DNA of 64,000 nucleotides from Candidatus Babeliales bacterium. Lineage in GTDB: Bacteria > Babelota > Babeliae > Babelales > JACPOV01. A program made the position numbers. Shown in pieces: positions 33,001 through 39,000 of this stretch (positions are counted from its first letter, which is position 1; the number at the start of each line of letters is the position of its first letter). The DNA lies in assembly GCA_050250855.1 (NCBI GenBank), contig JBFWNW010000003.1:96001-160000 (forward strand), read 5' to 3'.

Positions 33001-36000
33001 TACCACAGGAAGGCACACATTTTGCCCCCACATGACCAGTAAACGGTTCCATTCGGACCAGTATTCCTTGGGAAGTATCTTTTCTAGGGCTTTTTCTGTC
33101 TGCTCAGGCGTTTTTGTCTTTACCAAGCCTAGCCTATTAGAGATACGGTGAACATGGGTATCCACACAAATGGCAGGAATGCCATAGCTTTCAGCTAATA
33201 CCAAGCTTGCTGTTTTTGGCCCCACGCCAGGCAAAGAAAGCAGTTCTTCTCGTGTCCTTGGCACTTTACCGCCAAAATGTTCTAGGAGTTCCTCACTTAC
33301 TATTTTAAGACCGAGGGCTTTTTTGCGATAAAATCCGAGCTTATAAAGAATTTTTTCAAGATCTTTTAAAGGAATAGCAAGAATTTGCTGAGGTGTTTTT
33401 GCATGAGAAAAAAGATTCTGACAAACCGGTAAGGTCACGGTATCCTTGGCGCGTAAACTTAAAAGACAGCTTACTAAAACAAGAAAAGGATCGTTGCCAT
33501 ACTGGTCTATAATAGAAGAAACCATAGGTTTCACAAATGATTTTGTATTTTTTTTCAAAATAGCAATTATCTTAACAGCTCGCTCGCGCTGTCGCAAAAC
33601 CCATGGTTCTATCATATACTCATTACTAACATTAGCTCCAGTTTGAAGAAAGAACTAATTTATGCTAAGATTTTAAATATTAGCATGCAGGAGGAAATTC
33701 GGCTGCAATAAGTATAACAACCAAAATAACCTTACTTAATTTTTTGAAAAAATTAATGTTCATAAACAGCCTCCTTGTAAGGATGAAGTAAAATTAACCT
33801 GAAATAAGTATACCGATACACCAATTTAAATTCAAGAGAATAATGCTTAATGTATTAGATTTTTTTCAAAATATCATAAATGGACTGCCACTCTTATTTA
33901 TTGTTCAATCAGTTTCTCTTTTTTTAAAAACTAGTCTTTTATTGATTGTTATTTTTAATGGATTACGATCACCAAAATTACAAAGGCCTTGGTTCTTTTT
34001 GCTAATTATTTTAATTGGTTCTATTTTTTCTAGTATCGCATGGATAGCTTCTATTGCTCAAAAAAAATTTCTAACTTCTGTCGATTACAGATTTATTCTT
34101 TTTATAATTCGTATATCTTGGGCCATAACCATGCTTCAGTATCAATCTCTTGCATTTTTTATGGAAAGTTTAATAGAAAAAGACTATACAATACCCAAAT
34201 ATCAAAAATTATTTACCCTGATTAGTCTTTCAATGTTTTCTATGTACTTATATTTAGCTTTCTTTAAATTTAGTTCTTCAACAATTAGACCTCCTATAGA
34301 ATATACTTTGCTTAATATAAGTTCAGCTTATGCCCTTATTCCTGTAATAATAAGCTTATTCATAGCTCTAAAAAAAATGCGCCAAAAAGGCAGGAACTTA
34401 CCTAAAATTTTAAAAAAACAGGCAAAAGTACTTATTCAAGGTTTTTTAGCGCCCACATTAATCCTTGATTTTCTACAGGTTTATCCTTTTAACTTCGTCC
34501 CGTCACTCATAGCAAGTAACTACGCTGTTGTAACCGTCTCAACTGGCCTTTTAACGTTTGCTTTCTATTTTTGTGCGCGTAAAATGATGGGATTACGCTT
34601 CTTGAATTTTAATAATCACGTACAATCGCCAAAAACTTATAATTTTATAGACGATTTTAAAGATGTTCTTGAACAACTTGGTCATGTAAGCAGTACAAAA
34701 GAGCTCAGCCACATTAGCCAGGCCTTTTTTAAAGGCGCGTTTAACATTCAACCAAGCAGAGTTAGCTTGTATATCAGAAAGCTTCAAGCTACAGAAAATG
34801 ATCAGACATCTGAAAGCGAACAGCTACCAAGTTCTTCAATAGAAACTGTTGTAGAAGCATTTATCAGCAGGCATGAATCGTGCAACATTGCTCCCTTCTT
34901 GCGCCAAACAAAAATTTTAATTACTGATGAGATAGCATTTAGTAATTTTTATGATGAAACAAGCATAACAAAAGAAGTTTTACAGTTTTTATATGATATT
35001 AATGCGGATATCTTTTTACCTATTTATGAAAAAAATACTATCATCGCTTATATTCTTATAGAGCGTGATGCACGCATTAATGAATTTTACAGTAATCTAG
35101 AGCGTGATGAAATGGTGGTATTTGCAAGTTACCTTGCCAATATTATTAACCTTCTCCAGAATAAAAATGTTCACATCATTATTCAAAAAGATAAAGAACT
35201 GCGCGAAGAGCTGTATCGTAAACATCAAGAAATTAATCAGTATAAAGAAAGTATACGCTCCTTTTTACATGATTCCAAGCAGCGCCAGATTGGTATTTTA
35301 TTTTATAAAAATCGCCGTTTCCATTACGGCAATCAAGCAGCTAAAGAGCTTATAAAAATAAATCTTCACACGCAAGAAGGACATCCTCTTTCTAAATCGT
35401 TGTATCAACTTGCGCATCAAGTGGACGACTATAAAGTAAGCCAAACTCATTTTGCAAAAGATATCCACGGCAATCGCTTGGTTATTGCTGGTATTCCTAA
35501 TCTTGAAAAAAATAACGTTATTATTGCCGTCTACTATCCTGAAGTTTCTGACATTATAAAAAATCAAATTGAACATTTAAAAGATCCGAGCGAGTGGGAC
35601 TATTTGCTTTACCTAGAAACAACACAATCTGGCAAACTTATCAAACAACTTATTCCCGGCTCTGGCGAACAACTTCTTAACTTTAAAATTGAACTTTTAA
35701 AAACTTCATTAAGCAAAAAAGCCCTGCTGCTTGAAGTTCCTGATGAAGATTTTTCATCTATCGTTGAACTTTTACATCACATAAGTTTGCGCGAAAAATT
35801 GCACACCCTCAAATTATCGTCTCATGAAAAAAACTTTGAAACGGCCATTAAACTCTTTGGCATTAATAGCATTTATGGCATCAATCAAGAGCAAGCAATT
35901 CTTGAAAAATTGAATAATATTGGCACACTCTGCATACAAAATATTCATTTCCTTGATCTTGAAACGCAGCACTACTTGGCAGAATTCATTCGTTATGGTT

Positions 36001-39000
36001 TTTACAGAGTGTTTAAAAGTGATCAAAAAGTTATTAGTAATGTACGCATTATTTGTTCAACAAACCAAAACTTGCAAACGTTGGTACAAGAAGGTAAGTT
36101 TTCTCGCGCTTTATATAATGAGCTGAATCAAACAACCCTTGCAATGCCACCACTTATTTCATTGCCAAAAGAAGAATTAAGCAATTTGGCAGAAGGTTAC
36201 ACGGAACAGGCAGTCCAAAGCCAAGCATTTACTAATTTACTGGCTTTAACAGAAAAAGAAAAAACAAGACTCATTAATTCATGCCCGGTCAGTTTGCAAG
36301 AGTTTAAAACAAAAGTACAACAAATGCTGGTTAAAAAATCGCAGAAAAATAATATTTATGAAGAAACTCTGTTTGATCCTGCATATAATGTAACTGATCC
36401 AGAATTAGTACAAGCAGCGCGCTTAGGCAAAAAGGCACTTAAAGATCCAAAAACTTTAGCTCTTTTAATGGATAAATTTAAAAATCAAAACAAAATTGCA
36501 AAATTCTTGGGTGTTAATCGTTCTTCTGTTAACCGCCGTTGTAAAGATTATAATATTAGTGAATAAATTTTAATAACAAAAGGAGAACACAATGTTTTTT
36601 TATATTTATTCGGCCATAGCCTGTTTACAATCTATACTTTCCTTTACGGTTTATAGAAATATGCTCAATGCACCTACAAAAAAATTATGGATCTTTCTTT
36701 CGGTTATAGCTACAGCAAACCTTCTTACTTCTACTGCCTACGCTATTCTCTTTCTAGAAACAGTTCCTCATCACCTTAAAATGCCCTTTTTTATGTTCTG
36801 CTGGGGAGTAACAATGCTTTCTTTACAATCTTTCATATTTCTGCTCGAATACATAACAAAAATACCTAACAAGCTACCTAAAATATTTTTGCCTCTTAAT
36901 GTAATGCTCAGCTTATATTTTTTTTATATAGCATTTACCAATAACTACCCTGCTCATAAAGATACTTTTTTCTTAATTGTAGGTCTTTACTTACCAAGCT
37001 CTGTTATGTTCTGGACTATTTATGGCATTAAAAGAATAGCCCTAAATAGTTATACCTCTTCACTCAAAAGAAAAATTACACATATGTTACTTTATGGAGC
37101 TTTACCTGCAGCATCTCTAGAATTCTTAATACTATTAATAAAACATATACATGTTAATAGTTTTTTATTAATAGTTATCTATGCTCTTATTAGCATTGAA
37201 CTGCTTTTTTGGGCATATACTATCTTCCTACTGCAATCAATAATAAAAGAGATTTCATAAATAAATTTCATGATTAAAAAAGATAAATTCTTGAAAAAAA
37301 CCTCCTCTTGCCTTACTTTAAAAGCACACATAAGAGGAGAATTATGGATTTCAAACAGTTCAAACAAAAAAAAGAAGAATTTATCACGTACCTTGATGTA
37401 GAAAAAAATCTTTCCATTAATACGCGCAGAGCATACAAAACAGATCTTGATCAATTTATTACGTTTTGGTTTGAGCATACCAATAGAAATAAGATCGAAC
37501 TTCCTTTACGCCAAATTATCGAGCGCTTCTTAGTTGCCTTGTATGCAAAAAAAATTGATAAAACATCTATTGCGCGCAAAATATCATGCTTTACTTCGTT
37601 TGCACGCTTTATGCAAGCACAAGGAGTTAAATTAACGCTCAAATTAACACGCCCGCGCCTTGATAAAAAGTTACCTATCTATTTGAGCATGGATGAAGTT
37701 TCTTATTTGCTTGATACTATAAAACCAGACGATCTTCCAAGCAAACGCCCATTCCGCGACAAAGCAATTTTTGAATTACTCTATGCAACCGGCATTCGTT
37801 GCTCAGAGCTTGTTGCCATAACGTTTGAACAAATAGATTTTATCAGTAGAACTATTAGAATTATTGGTAAGGGAAATAAAGAGCGTTTTGTGCTGTTTGG
37901 TTCAAAAGCAGAAGAATCACTAAAAAACTACCTAAAAGAAGAACGTCCTGAGCCAGATGATCGCCAAGCAAAACTGTTTTTAAATAATCGTAGCGAGCCT
38001 CTTACCGTGCGTTCTGTGCAGCGTATTTGTGAAATGTTTCGCCAGTTTTTAAAAATACGTAAAAAAATAACACCGCACAAATTGCGCCATTCGTTTGCTA
38101 CACACCTTTTAAATCAAGGGACTGATCTGCGTGTTGTGCAAGAATTGTTAGGACACAGCTCATTAAGTAGTACAGAAAAATATACGCATGTAACTACCAA
38201 ACAGTTAAGTGATATGTGCAACAGTTTGCATCCCTACAACACCATGAATACCAAGAAAGAAAATGATTCTTAATGAATAGTATTGGTCATGCACAGCGCT
38301 GTATACATGTTATGGCAGTAATGGGGTTTGTTTTTTGTATTTTTGTAATGCGTCTTTTTTATTTGCAGCTTTATTTACAGGATATATTTTTCAAAAAGGC
38401 ACAAAAAAATTTCACCCGTACTTCCACCATTCCACCGCAACGAGGAAATATTCTCGATTGCCACGGCACCTTGCTTGCCACTAATCGCCCTATTACCATG
38501 CTCTATTGGCACGGCAGTGGCAATCGCCAGCTGAGTGCTGAGCAAACTGCTCTTCTTGCACACCTTTCCACCATTCTTAATAAAGATATGCAAGAAACAG
38601 AATTTCTTACGCGCTTGAAATATGCAGAACGCATGGCACGAGAAATAATGATTATACATGACATCCCTCTTGAGCTGCTGAGCAAAGTGATGGAGAAATT
38701 CCCCAATCATCCTAATTTAAGCGTACGGGAAGAAACAAAGCGCCTTTACCCGCACCACACTATTGCATGCCATACGCTTGGCTATATTGGCTCCATGCAA
38801 GAATCTGGCAAAATGGGCCTTGAATATTTATTTGAAACCAATTTACGAGGACAAGAAGGCCAGCGTATGACCATGATCAATTCTCTTGGCTCAAGCTTGC
38901 GCCAAGAAGAGCTATCAAAAGCTTTTTCTGGAGAAAACATTCAAACAACACTCGATCTTAATTTACAAAAAATTGCAGAACGTTGTTTTGATAAAAATCT

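What a model noticed while it worked through the whole genome (the two positions that open the first line are those of the whole stretch)
33843..36566. A membrane-anchored, ATPase-dead sigma-54 activator homologue in a phylum without sigma-54
g00848 (907 aa) joins an N-terminal block of about seven transmembrane helices and a ~350-aa unassigned middle part to the AAA+ core of NtrC-type sigma-54 activators and a Fis-type HTH, but the P-loop (VPDEDFSS), the sigma-54-contacting GAFTGA loop (SIYGIN) and Walker B (LFLDEI to LCIQNI) are gone, and neither this genome nor any of 260 other Dependentiae genomes encodes a sigma-54 DNA-binding domain. I read it as a relic enhancer-binding protein that outlived its sigma factor and now works as an ATP-independent, membrane-tethered one-component regulator with the single sigma-70. 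New would be a conserved pseudo-ATPase EBP lineage and a test case for what the EBP scaffold does without sigma-5 [...]
Evidence so far: call 71: Sigma54_activat E 7e-11 covering only HMM 69-167 of 168 (aa 670-766); Sigma54_activ_2 E 4e-11. call 141: best PDB hits Aquifex NtrC1 (1ny6, E 2e-11), LuxO, PspF, NtrC, 32 sequences; the printed alignment to NtrC1 puts GAFTGA opposite S-I-Y-G-I-N and LFLDEI opposite LCIQNI. call 89: Sigma54_DBD (PF04552) over cut-off in 0 of 261 Dependentiae genomes (189 at least 90% complete), positive in 4 of 14 controls; pfam.tsv here has no Sigma54 AID/CBD/DBD row and one Sigma70 protein (g01005). relatives.tsv: Sigma54_activat at E<=1e-5 in 182 of 260 Babelales genomes, 8 of 9 in the family.
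(Added by a program. Inside this text positions count along the whole contig: contig position 96,001 is position 1 of the stretch shown here. "Call 12" and the like, gene names such as g00115 and contig names such as C1 are that model's own, and its searches are not shown. The text may have been shortened before it was handed on; [...] marks where a part breaks off. The agent that wrote the report below was given it as the finding of a first reader that could run no searches.)

Follow-up and report, generated by a model that had tools for sequence, protein, structure and literature searches.

The report
Membrane-anchored dead-ATPase EBP-type regulator
This gene encodes a membrane-bound sensor fused to a DNA-binding regulator whose ATPase motor has lost its ATP-binding and hydrolysis motifs, and most members of a bacterial phylum that lacks the usual partner of that motor, sigma-54, keep it.

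Summary
Window 33843..36566 (+) is an intact 907-aa ORF. It has seven N-terminal TM helices, a GAF-like domain, a coiled coil and a PAS-like domain. These are followed by an AAA+ domain of the sigma-54-activator (bEBP) clade and a Fis-type HTH. Walker A, Walker B, the GAFTGA loop, both arginine fingers and the sensor II arginine are replaced. None of 248 full-length family members keeps a P-loop, a Walker B DE pair or GAFTGA. A full-length rpoN model passes its cut-off in 0 of 261 phylum genomes. The protein is not a decaying relic. 185 of 261 genomes carry a strong full-length copy, in conserved synteny (thrS, nth, regulator, xerC/D, PBP2). The gene tree follows taxonomy, and the HTH and pseudo-ATPase are the best-conserved parts. 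This genome has one sigma-70 and no receiver, HisKA or GGDEF domain. New here: the families without this protein carry a REC-type, NtrX-like EBP homologue instead. That protein keeps its P-loop but shares the dead Walker B and missing arginine fingers. My best reading is an ATP-independent, membrane-tethered one-component regulator acting with sigma-70. This is a new variant of the known "atypical EBP" class. Function is untested.

The parts
33843..36566 (+). Whole gene: 907-aa 7TM / GAF-like / coiled coil / PAS-like / pseudo-AAA+ / HTH regulator
   Evidence: ORF. Full-length orthologues in 185 of 261 phylum genomes. AF2 model has mean pLDDT 82.9.
33885..34601 (+). Seven transmembrane helices (aa 15-253), N-terminus out, C-terminus in
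   Evidence: Helices H15-42, 48-75, 82-111, 119-141, 151-181, 188-213 and 227-253 in both models. Hydropathy. K+R per loop averages 2.0-2.6 on the inside and 0.4-1.5 on the outside. The fold resembles GPCR-type 7TM bundles, Z 13.9-16.7 in 50 of 50 listed rows. Atlas lead to HisKA_7TM. Pfam sees nothing.
34644..35159 (+). GAF-like domain (aa 268-439), inferred
   Evidence: Order of helices and strands in the AF2 models. Weak Foldseek matches to phytochrome PAS-GAF-PHY modules, best E 2.6e-3. Atlas neighbours carry GAF/PAS. No Pfam GAF hit in 0 of 50 members.
35169..35270 (+). Long conserved helix with heptad spacing (aa 443-476), probable dimeric coiled coil
   Evidence: Single helix H443-476 in the models. 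Mean majority fraction 0.75 over 52 members. The heptad pattern was read directly from the sequence.
35292..35534 (+). PAS-like domain (aa 484-564), inferred
   Evidence: Five strands with intervening helices in the AF2 models. No Pfam PAS hit.
35631..36359 (+). Pseudo-AAA+ domain plus lid of the bEBP clade (aa 597-839)
   Evidence: Pfam hits. Family profile against PDB: NtrC4 at 3.5e-21. VIA Z 17-20.6 to DmpR, NtrC1, NtrX, FleQ, ZraR, LuxO, PspF and VpsR. Foldseek TM 0.65-0.71 on AAA-only chains.
35736..35759 (+). Walker A remnant VPDEDFSS (aa 632-639) opposite GESGTGKE of NtrC4
   Evidence: Alignment. 0 of 248 family members have GxxGxGK or GxxxxGK[ST]. Asp636 is kept in 247 of 248.
35856..35885 (+). 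L1 loop remnant FGINSIYGIN (aa 672-681) in place of the GAFTGA loop
   Evidence: Alignments. 0 of 248 members have a GAFTGA-like motif.
35922..35945 (+). Walker B remnant GTLCIQNI (aa 694-701); the D-E pair is replaced by Q-N
   Evidence: 0 of 248 have DE. Asn replaces the catalytic Glu in 230 of 248 and in 52 of 52 examined loci.
36093..36128 (+). Arginine-finger region GKFSRALYNELN (aa 751-762); both finger arginines are lost
   Evidence: Opposite FREDLYYRL of NtrC1 and NtrC4. Glu stands at the second finger position in 191 of 248.
36399..36548 (+). C-terminal four-helix Fis-type HTH (aa 853-902), the best-conserved part of the protein
   Evidence: Helices. The NtrX and TyrR NCBIfam models align through it. 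ZraR and NtrX structures align through aa 902-905. LGVNRSSVNRR is nearly invariant. Conservation 0.80. HTH_8 reaches E<=0.1 in 10 of 50 members.
36592..37260 (+). Orphan 222-aa ORF: a diverged stand-alone copy of the family's 7TM block, at the place where other genomes carry a tandem second regulator copy
   Evidence: BLASTP to aa 39-140 of the regulator, E 6e-5. Collinear with profile positions 24-243, weak at 13.6 bits with high bias. Found in 1 of 261 genomes. Tandem second copies occur in 11 of 32 loci.
37308..39979 (+). Conserved downstream neighbours: xerC/D-type recombinase (37308..38273) and PBP2-type transpeptidase (38273..39979)
   Evidence: Pfam. Synteny. The gap from regulator stop to recombinase start is -24 to 43 nt in 8 of 17 loci.
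32935..33615 (-). Conserved divergent upstream neighbour: endonuclease III (nth)
   Evidence: Pfam HhH-GPD. Present upstream in 29 of 32 loci.

Best explanation
The gene encodes a vertically inherited, membrane-anchored one-component transcription regulator built on a catalytically dead enhancer-binding-protein scaffold. Shown: the domain order, the loss of every ATP-binding and hydrolysis motif checked (Walker A, Walker B, both arginine fingers, the sensor II arginine) and of the sigma-54-contact loop across the whole family (the sensor I Thr-Asn is mostly kept), the absence of a detectable rpoN in the phylum, and strong conservation of the pseudo-ATPase and HTH. Inferred: a seven-helix membrane module (N-out, C-in) and the cytoplasmic GAF-like and PAS-like modules sense a membrane-borne or small-molecule signal. 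The signal passes down a conserved coiled coil and the PAS-to-AAA+ junction helices. The AAA+ domain no longer works as a motor; it serves as a rigid assembly and transmission module that sets the geometry of the C-terminal Fis-type HTH pair. The protein then binds DNA at the membrane and activates or represses sigma-70 promoters without ATP. In a 1.2-Mb genome with one sigma-70 and no receiver, HisKA or GGDEF domain, it is probably one of very few signal-responsive regulators. Frequent close coupling to xerC/D and PBP2 hints at co-transcription with division and envelope genes.
For: Architecture. Dead motifs across the family: 30 of 30 orthologues, 52 of 52 including paralogues and members at 27-33% identity. 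Among 248 full-length members, 0 have a P-loop, 0 have Walker B DE and 0 have GAFTGA. An invariant Asp in the former P-loop (247 of 248) and flanking acidic residues would oppose phosphate binding (inference). No rpoN. One sigma-70, no REC, HisKA or GGDEF in this genome. Purifying selection and vertical descent: full-length matches at 45-72% identity in 185 of 261 genomes. Conservation is HTH 0.80, junction helices 0.78, coiled coil 0.75, AAA+ 0.68, against 0.48 for the 7TM block. The gene tree groups by taxonomic family. Synteny is conserved. The HTH is comparable to those of NtrX, TyrR, ZraR and NifA. Precedent: atypical EBPs without GAFTGA act at sigma-70 promoters, and VpsR needs no ATP (passages read; Francke et al. 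passages).
Against: No experiment or expression data exist, and no RNA run was listed. No DNA target is known, and I found no conserved inverted repeat upstream of the gene. HTH Pfam scores are weak for this protein (E 0.05-0.2). GAF, PAS and HisKA_7TM are not seen by any sequence model (0 of 50 members; 0 PDB hits for the sensor profile). They rest on AF2 topology and weak fold matches (best E 2.6e-3). A DNA-binding domain about 650 residues from a 7TM anchor is an unusual geometry. Dimerisation could not be tested because the complex predictor was unavailable. Most characterised atypical EBPs keep a P-loop and bind ATP, so the scaffold may need a ligand that I cannot see.
Confidence: 0.62

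Rival explanations
1. Same regulator, but active only after release from the membrane. Regulated proteolysis between TM7 and the GAF-like domain would free a soluble GAF-PAS-pseudoAAA-HTH factor.
For: The TM7-to-GAF linker (aa 253-266) is the least confident and least ordered stretch in both models. The long distance from anchor to HTH makes a tethered mode awkward. This is inference.
Against: I did not identify a cleavage motif or a partnered site-2 protease. The short forms in databases come largely from short contigs and are probably fragments or miscalls, not conserved soluble versions.
Confidence: 0.15
2. Not a transcription factor. It would be a membrane tether for DNA that works with the adjacent XerC/D recombinase and PBP2 in chromosome resolution, segregation or division, with the HTH holding a chromosomal site at the membrane.
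For: Phylum-wide synteny of regulator, xerC/D and PBP2, with overlapping or nearly abutting genes in 8 of 17 loci. The HTH is invariant and the protein is membrane-anchored.
Against: GAF-like and PAS-like sensor modules and the EBP/Fis-HTH output are typical of signal-dependent regulators. Synteny in small genomes often reflects operon packing, not shared function. Repeated duplication of the gene fits diversifying regulators better than a single structural tether.
Confidence: 0.1
3. The pocket is not empty. The remodelled nucleotide site would bind another ligand, or ATP in a non-canonical way, and so act as a second sensor, as c-di-GMP does in FleQ and VpsR.
For: The replaced pocket residues are themselves highly conserved: Asp636 in 247 of 248, Asn700 in 230 of 248, and His645/His646 nearly invariant. 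That suggests a selected function beyond fold maintenance.
Against: The acidic P-loop replacement disfavours phosphates. This genome has no GGDEF domain, so c-di-GMP is unlikely. No ligand can be inferred from these tools.
Confidence: 0.12
4. A canonical activator after all. A very divergent sigma-54, or one in unassembled DNA, would exist and be contacted by this protein.
For: Genomes are MAGs of 51-99% completeness. One 20-bit hit to the RpoN-box end of the model occurs at a contig end in one genome.
Against: 0 of 261 genomes pass the full-length rpoN cut-off, including 189 of high quality and many single-contig assemblies. GAFTGA, Walker A, Walker B and the arginine fingers are all gone in 248 of 248, so the remodelling machinery is absent whatever the sigma.
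Confidence: 0.02
5. A functionless relic on its way to loss.
For: All catalytic motifs are gone. Some lineages lack the gene (f4, f6, f12, f14, f15, f17, f18). A few copies carry stops (for example a second copy in G121 with 8 stops).
Against: The 907-aa frame is intact, with 45-72% identity across the phylum and a near-invariant HTH. The gene is syntenic, repeatedly duplicated and retained.
Confidence: 0.01

Closest known systems
Atypical, sigma-70-dependent bEBP homologues (TyrR/PhhR, NtrX, VpsR, HupR, Rhodobacter and Caulobacter NtrC, DhaR)
   Same: They share an EBP-clade AAA+ domain with a defective or deleted GAFTGA loop, followed by a Fis-type HTH, and they act without sigma-54. VpsR also has a non-consensus Walker B and needs no ATP (passages). 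NtrX and VpsR structures are among the best fold matches. NtrX and TyrR models align from the AAA+ domain through the HTH.
   Different: Those proteins are soluble, with REC or ACT-PAS inputs. The papers read here describe motif variation, not a complete loss of Walker A, Walker B, arginine fingers and sensor II together. That TyrR and NtrX bind ATP is my recollection. This protein has a 7TM-GAF-PAS input. It has lost every ATP-binding and hydrolysis motif checked in all 248 members, and it occurs across most of a phylum that has no rpoN at all.
Canonical sigma-54 activators (NtrC1, NtrC4, PspF, DmpR, ZraR, FleQ)
   Same: Same AAA+ fold (Z 17-20.6, rmsd 3.6-4.9 A over about 230 residues), including the pre-sensor-I hairpin (strands 720-731) and the lid. 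Sensor I Thr-Asn is mostly kept. Same C-terminal HTH placement.
   Different: No P-loop, no Walker B DE, no GAFTGA, no arginine fingers, no sensor II arginine, and no sigma-54 in the genome.
REC-type NtrX-like protein of the other Dependentiae families (about 430 aa; for example L042:865-2145)
   Same: Same phylum. It is an EBP AAA+ plus HTH protein with the same derived Walker B (hydrophobic run, K, N, I) and the same arginine-less finger region (GKFN..LFH.LN against GKFS..LYNELN). It is 38% identical over 81 aa. Distribution is nearly complementary: 48 of 261 genomes, mainly f17, f18, f15 and f12, against 185 elsewhere.
   Different: It has a REC input, keeps an intact P-loop (GQHGTGK), and has the L1 loop and the pre-sensor-I hairpin deleted. 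It is soluble and sits in a different gene neighbourhood, between an ABC ATPase and a MoxR-like gene. Common origin is not demonstrated.
HisKA_7TM-type bacterial 7TM sensor modules (on histidine kinases, GGDEF proteins, AraC-type regulators)
   Same: Seven-helix N-terminal block followed by GAF/PAS. 28 of the 30 nearest named Atlas clusters carry PF16927, with score 0.90. TM-scores are 0.63-0.68 to 7TM blocks of kinases, cyclases and 7TM-AraC regulators.
   Different: The Pfam model does not match. A profile of the sensor half finds only 503 proteins in 1.84 billion, and all 150 listed are this family or its fragments. The output here is a pseudo-AAA+ plus HTH. The Atlas results are leads, not tests.
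Membrane-bound one-component regulators (ToxR, CadC, BcrR; recalled, not searched here)
   Same: One polypeptide combines a membrane sensor and a DNA-binding domain, so DNA is bound at the membrane.
   Different: Those have one to four TM helices and a winged-helix or Xre-type DNA-binding domain at the N-terminus. They are not homologous to this protein.

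Membership tests
Bacterial enhancer-binding proteins (sigma-54 activators) | AAA+ domain of the EBP clade (Pfam PF00158/PF14532; fold with pre-sensor-I hairpin) | tested here: met
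   Both Pfam models are over cut-off but cover only the C-terminal half of the domain. 50 of 50 members match. Profile against NtrC4 gives 3.5e-21 over the whole domain. VIA Z 17-20.6.
Bacterial enhancer-binding proteins (sigma-54 activators) | Walker A P-loop (GxxGxGK) | tested here: not met
   VPDEDFSS stands opposite GESGTGKE. 0 of 248 members have a P-loop.
Bacterial enhancer-binding proteins (sigma-54 activators) | Walker B Asp-Glu | tested here: not met
   Q-N in this protein. 0 of 248 have DE, and Asn stands at the Glu position in 230 of 248.
Bacterial enhancer-binding proteins (sigma-54 activators) | GAFTGA loop that contacts sigma-54 | tested here: not met
   S-I-Y-G-I-N in a shortened loop. 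0 of 248 are GAFTGA-like.
Bacterial enhancer-binding proteins (sigma-54 activators) | Arginine fingers and sensor II arginine | tested here: not met
   FSRALYNEL stands opposite FREDLYYRL. The family consensus SLLTL (PLISL in this protein) stands opposite PLRER.
Bacterial enhancer-binding proteins (sigma-54 activators) | A sigma-54 (rpoN) in the same genome | tested here: not met
   TIGR02395 gives 0 hits at E<=10 in this genome and is over cut-off in 0 of 261 phylum genomes.
Bacterial enhancer-binding proteins (sigma-54 activators) | C-terminal Fis-type HTH | tested here: inconclusive
   HTH_8 E 0.2 and HTH_50 E 0.049, both under cut-off. HTH_8 reaches E<=0.1 in 10 of 50 members. However, NtrX and TyrR models and ZraR and NtrX structures align through it, and a four-helix bundle is predicted.
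Atypical sigma-70-dependent EBP homologues | EBP AAA+ homologue with defective GAFTGA plus an HTH | tested here: met
Atypical sigma-70-dependent EBP homologues | Acts at sigma-70 promoters | not testable with these tools
   Only indirect evidence: one sigma-70 and no rpoN in the genome.
Atypical sigma-70-dependent EBP homologues | Equivalog membership in TyrR, NtrX or PspF (NCBIfam cut-offs) | tested here: not met
   Best scores are 61.8, 57.1 and 56.9 bits against cut-offs of 443-600.
HisKA_7TM (PF16927) sensor module | Match to the Pfam model | tested here: not met
   No hit at E<=1 for this protein, and none at E<=0.1 in 0 of 50 members.
HisKA_7TM (PF16927) sensor module | Seven-helix bundle N-terminal to cytoplasmic GAF/PAS, with similar fold | tested here: inconclusive
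   Seven helices in two models. Atlas leads: 28 of 30 clusters, TM 0.63-0.68. PDB matches are GPCR-type bundles at Z 13.9-16.7, just above the level common for helical bundles.
GAF and PAS domains | Pfam match or clear fold match | tested here: inconclusive
   No Pfam match. The sensor profile has 0 PDB sequence hits. Foldseek's best is a phytochrome PAS-GAF-PHY module at E 2.6e-3. The secondary-structure order fits. The VIA list was filled by the 7TM block, so these parts were barely tested.

The most novel reading that the evidence does not exclude
Dependentiae as a phylum run on two alternative, nearly mutually exclusive EBP-derived regulators that have both given up ATP hydrolysis. One has a 7TM-GAF-PAS input and no nucleotide site at all. 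The other has a REC input and a retained P-loop. Their shared x-Asn Walker B and arginine-less finger region would mark a single ancient conversion of the sigma-54 motor into a passive sigma-70 regulator scaffold. In the lineages that have lost two-component signalling, the 7TM form would be the main signal-responsive switch of the host-dependent life cycle.
Probability: 0.3. Interest if true: 0.75.

Novelty: new variant of a known kind. Interest (0 to 1): 0.6.

Why it matters
EBP AAA+ domains are a textbook case of an ATP-driven transcription motor. A large, strongly conserved family that keeps the fold but has lost its ATP-binding and hydrolysis motifs (Walker A, Walker B, arginine fingers, sensor II arginine), in a phylum without sigma-54, is a natural experiment. 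It shows what the scaffold does when it cannot hydrolyse and probably cannot bind ATP. It also corrects a systematic annotation error: public records name these proteins 'sigma 54-interacting transcriptional regulator' or 'regulator of aromatic amino acid metabolism'. Finally, it points to what may be one of very few signal-responsive regulators in reduced, host-dependent genomes that have no two-component systems. That gives a concrete entry point to gene regulation in Dependentiae, for which I found nothing in print.

Tried and rejected
Autoregulatory operator. I searched the 200 nt upstream of 32 orthologues for shared inverted repeats (4-nt arms, gaps 0-14). The best pattern occurred in 6 of 32 sequences, no better than shuffles, whose maxima were 4-6. 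Only a -10-like AAGTATAAT stood out, in 14 of 32 against shuffle maxima of 9-13.

Promoter and terminator scan of 33400-37500. It gave 22 promoter-like sites against 17.3 +/- 4.9 expected, and 2 terminator-like sites against 2.1. This is uninformative.

Sequence models for the sensor half. No GAF, PAS or HisKA_7TM hit in Pfam or NCBIfam. The sensor profile has 0 PDB sequence hits at E<=1. Foldseek on the sensor model gave 0 matches at E<=0.001. The VIA wide search listed only 7TM bundles, so the GAF-like and PAS-like parts were barely tested.

Search for relatives of the sensor outside the family. The profile against 1.84 billion representatives gave 503 hits, and all 150 listed are the family or its fragments. 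The 353 hits not listed could not be inspected. A search for shorter proteins with the C-terminal part returned 225 hits, mostly from short contigs and probably family fragments.

Complex prediction of a dimer of aa 440-907. The tool was full and then unavailable, so nothing was folded.

Expression. No RNA holder was listed.

Earlier findings.

c-di-GMP as ligand. Considered because of FleQ and VpsR, and set aside because no GGDEF domain was found in this genome.

Common origin of the 7TM type and the REC type. I did not build a tree with outgroup EBPs, because I had no broad EBP sample and long-branch artefacts would be likely. The point rests on shared substitutions only.

Literature. 'Dependentiae' with 'sigma-54' returned 0 papers. 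'Dependentiae' with 'transcriptional regulator' and 'sigma factor' returned 1 unrelated paper by its listing. 'Dependentiae' with genome, regulator and two-component returned 13 papers, none on this protein by listing. Passages of the Chromulinavorax genome paper name only merR, yebC and fmdB as regulators. A search for membrane-bound enhancer-binding proteins returned 2 unrelated papers by listing.

Full report
1. What is there

Window 33843..36566 (+) is one intact 907-aa ORF. The short ORFs that overlap it on either strand have no support. Pfam finds only the two sigma-54-activator AAA+ models, both over cut-off and both covering only the second half of the domain. Sigma54_activ_2 scores E 3.5e-11 (aa 677-771) and Sigma54_activat E 7.5e-11 (aa 670-766). 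HTH models are sub-threshold. NCBIfam ranks PspF, NtrX and TyrR first, at 57-62 bits against cut-offs of 443-600. The NtrX and TyrR alignments run from the AAA+ domain to the C-terminal HTH. A PDB sequence search returns 32 EBP sequences, with NtrC1 best.

2. Anatomy

An AF2 model built on 58 family sequences has mean pLDDT 82.9. A second model of residues 1-600 agrees with it. Both show:
- seven long helices: 15-42, 48-75, 82-111, 119-141, 151-181, 188-213, 227-253;
- an alpha/beta domain with GAF-like order (268-439);
- one 34-residue helix with heptad spacing (443-476);
- a five-stranded PAS-like domain (484-564).

The 907-residue model adds:
- two junction helices;
- an AAA+ alpha/beta core with the pre-sensor-I hairpin (626-770), a lid (776-835) and a four-helix HTH (853-902).

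Hydropathy and loop K+R counts support seven TM helices with the N-terminus outside and the rest in the cytoplasm. The means are 2.0-2.6 in the predicted inside loops and 0.4-1.5 outside, over 52 members.

The AAA+ part matches DmpR, NtrC1, NtrX, FleQ, ZraR, LuxO, FlrC, NifA, PspF and VpsR. Z is 17-20.6, with rmsd of about 4 A over about 230 residues. Foldseek TM-scores are 0.65-0.71 on AAA-only chains.

The 7TM block matches GPCR-type seven-helix bundles at Z 13.9-16.7 in all 50 listed rows. That is only just above what helical bundles commonly give. The protein-atlas searches point to HisKA_7TM-GAF-PAS sensor kinases and cyclases, which I treat as leads.

No sequence model sees GAF, PAS or HisKA_7TM in any of 50 members. 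The sensor profile has no PDB sequence hit. Foldseek's best match for the sensor model is a phytochrome PAS-GAF-PHY module at E 2.6e-3. The names 'GAF-like' and 'PAS-like' are therefore inferences.

3. The ATPase is dead in the whole family

A profile of the C-terminal 308 residues aligns to NtrC4 over the whole AAA+ domain at E 3.5e-21. That alignment, with the NtrC1 alignment, gives these correspondences:

| Motif | NtrC1 / NtrC4 (as printed) | This protein |
|---|---|---|
| Walker A | GESGTGKE | VPDEDFSS |
| L1 loop | GAFTGA stretch | shortened loop, S-I-Y-G-I-N |
| Walker B | GTLFLDE(I/V) | GTLCIQNI |
| Arginine fingers | FREDLYYRL | FSRALYNEL |
| Sensor II | PLRER | PLISL (family consensus SLLTL) |

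Only the sensor I Thr-Asn is largely kept.

I checked 30 orthologues. I then checked 52 sequences that include tandem and dispersed paralogues and two members at 27-33% identity. Finally I checked all 248 family proteins of at least 800 aa returned by two database searches. Among the 248:
- 0 have GxxGxGK or GxxxxGK[ST];
- 0 have a GAFTGA-like motif;
- 0 have Walker B DE.

The replacements are themselves conserved. An Asp in the former P-loop occurs in 247 of 248, an Asn at the catalytic-Glu position in 230 of 248, and a Glu at the second arginine-finger position in 191 of 248.

4. No sigma-54 and almost no other signalling

It finds nothing at E<=10 in this genome, which is 1.218 Mb in 11 contigs and 95% complete. 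It is over cut-off in 0 of 261 phylum genomes, 189 of them of high quality, against 4 of 14 controls. The single weak hit is 20 bits over 30 residues at a contig end. This genome has one sigma-70 region-2 hit and no receiver domain, HisKA or GGDEF.

5. Not a relic

The protein itself matches 189 of 261 genomes. Of these, 185 are strong, mostly full-length matches at 45-72% identity. They cover every genome of several families, for example 80 of 80 in f21 and 9 of 9 in this genome's family. A database search finds 1190 relatives at E<=0.001 among the 8000 candidates scored.

The neighbourhood thrS, nth (divergent), regulator, xerC/D, PBP2 recurs even around the most divergent members. The recombinase starts -24 to 43 nt from the regulator's stop in 8 of 17 loci.

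A quick maximum-likelihood tree groups the sequences by taxonomic family, as expected for vertical descent. It also shows separate duplications: a clade of second copies in f21, extra copies within f1, and a recent pair in one f2 genome. Support is SH-aLRT only, and two long branches are unreliable.

Conservation is highest in the HTH (0.80), the PAS-to-AAA+ junction helices (0.78), the coiled coil (0.75) and the pseudo-AAA+ core (0.68). It is lowest in the 7TM block (0.48). The dead domain is under strong constraint.

6. A second, complementary EBP-derived regulator

The four weak matches in families f17 and f18 led to a 427-aa protein made of REC, AAA+, lid and HTH_8. It scores best against NtrX, at 206.8 bits and below cut-off. 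It occurs in 48 of 261 genomes: 32 of 35 in f17, 12 of 12 in f18, 2 of 2 in f15 and 1 of 1 in f12. The 48th is one weak match in f2. Apart from that match, these are families that lack the 7TM protein.

Receiver domains as a whole are confined almost entirely to those families. They occur in 58 of 261 genomes, with 0 of 9 in f1 and 3 of 80 in f21.

This REC-type protein keeps its P-loop (GQHGTGK). However, its Walker B reads GTLF(I/V)KNI in 5 of the 7 members aligned (the other two read VFFKNI and ILYIKHI), and its finger region GKFN..LFH.LN has no arginine. Its L1 loop and its pre-sensor-I hairpin are deleted.

The shared x-Asn Walker B and arginine-less finger suggest, but do not prove, that hydrolysis was lost once before the two architectures diverged. 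Overall similarity between the two is modest: 38% over 81 residues.

7. How it most likely works

Shown:
- the architecture;
- family-wide loss of the ATP-binding, hydrolysis and sigma-54-contact motifs listed in section 3;
- no detectable rpoN;
- strong constraint on the pseudo-ATPase and HTH.

Inferred:
- The 7TM, GAF-like and PAS-like modules sense a membrane or small-molecule cue.
- The coiled coil and junction helices transmit the signal.
- The AAA+ fold acts as a passive assembly and transmission module.
- The Fis-type HTH pair binds DNA and modulates sigma-70 promoters without ATP.

Published atypical EBPs give the precedent. They include TyrR, PhhR, HupR, HsfA, NtrX, VpsR, DhaR, and Rhodobacter and Caulobacter NtrC (passages read). 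Francke et al. already note EBP homologues with altered GAFTGA in organisms that lack sigma-54.

What differs here is the complete loss of the nucleotide site, the 7TM anchor, and the phylum-wide, sigma-54-free setting.

The rivals are proteolytic release, a DNA-tether role linked to XerC/D and PBP2, and a re-purposed ligand pocket. None is excluded. A hidden sigma-54 and a functionless relic are effectively excluded.

8. Novelty

Public records auto-annotate the family as 'sigma 54-interacting transcriptional regulator' or as a TyrR-type regulator. I found no paper that describes it. I read only listings and passages, and no supplements. I rate it a new variant of a known kind.

9. Limits

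- All functional statements are inference.
- The GAF-like and PAS-like assignments are weak.
- No RNA run was listed.
- No operator was found.
- 353 of the 503 sensor-profile hits were not listed, so relatives outside the phylum or with other outputs cannot be ruled out.

Noticed in passing
window 36592..37260 (+): An orphan 222-aa hydrophobic ORF lies between the regulator and xerC/D. It is a diverged stand-alone copy of the regulator's 7TM block: BLASTP E 6e-5 to aa 39-140, and collinear with family profile positions 24-243 at a weak 13.6 bits. It sits where 11 of 32 related loci carry a tandem second regulator. It was found in 1 of 261 phylum genomes and is absent in the same-genus genome. 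It is probably the remnant of a lost tandem paralogue.
   Followed up: yes
L042:865-2145 (+), L043:1276-2580 (-), L066-L071: A REC-AAA+-HTH protein, NtrX-like and about 430 aa, occurs in 48 of 261 Dependentiae genomes, almost only in families that lack the 7TM regulator. Its P-loop is intact, but Walker B reads K-N in 6 of the 7 members aligned (K-H in the seventh), there are no arginine fingers, and the L1 loop is deleted. It sits between an ABC-type ATPase gene and a MoxR-like gene.
   Followed up: partly
window 33680..33763 (-): A 27-aa hydrophobic minus-strand ORF with a GGAGG Shine-Dalgarno lies in the 227-nt nth-regulator spacer. In orthologues a CAT...CCTCC start context sits about 80-90 nt upstream of the regulator, so this genome's spacer looks about 140 nt longer or rearranged at the 5' end of nth.
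   Followed up: no
window 33806..33842 and the equivalent stretch in L010-L041: The regulator gene has no Shine-Dalgarno-like sequence, unlike its neighbour nth. Orthologues share a -10-like AAGTATAAT 25-35 nt upstream of the ATG (14 of 32), and an element of the type (A/T)AGCAAGA or ATCAATA lies just before the ATG. Its meaning is unknown.
   Followed up: partly
G121:C1:1509115-1511511 (next to L016), G253, G025, G194: A few family copies carry in-frame stops, for example 2 TGA and 6 TAA in a second copy in G121. Extra copies therefore do decay in some lineages.
   Followed up: no
window 39981..40853 (-) and 29152..30585 (-): An ankyrin-repeat protein with a signal-like N-terminus lies downstream of PBP2. 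A PIN-PhoH fusion protein lies upstream of thrS.
   Followed up: no
G098:C8:52-141 (L045): A 30-residue, 20-bit match to the C-terminal (RpoN-box) end of the rpoN model lies in a 33-aa frame at a contig end. It is the only rpoN signal in 261 genomes and is probably noise.
   Followed up: no
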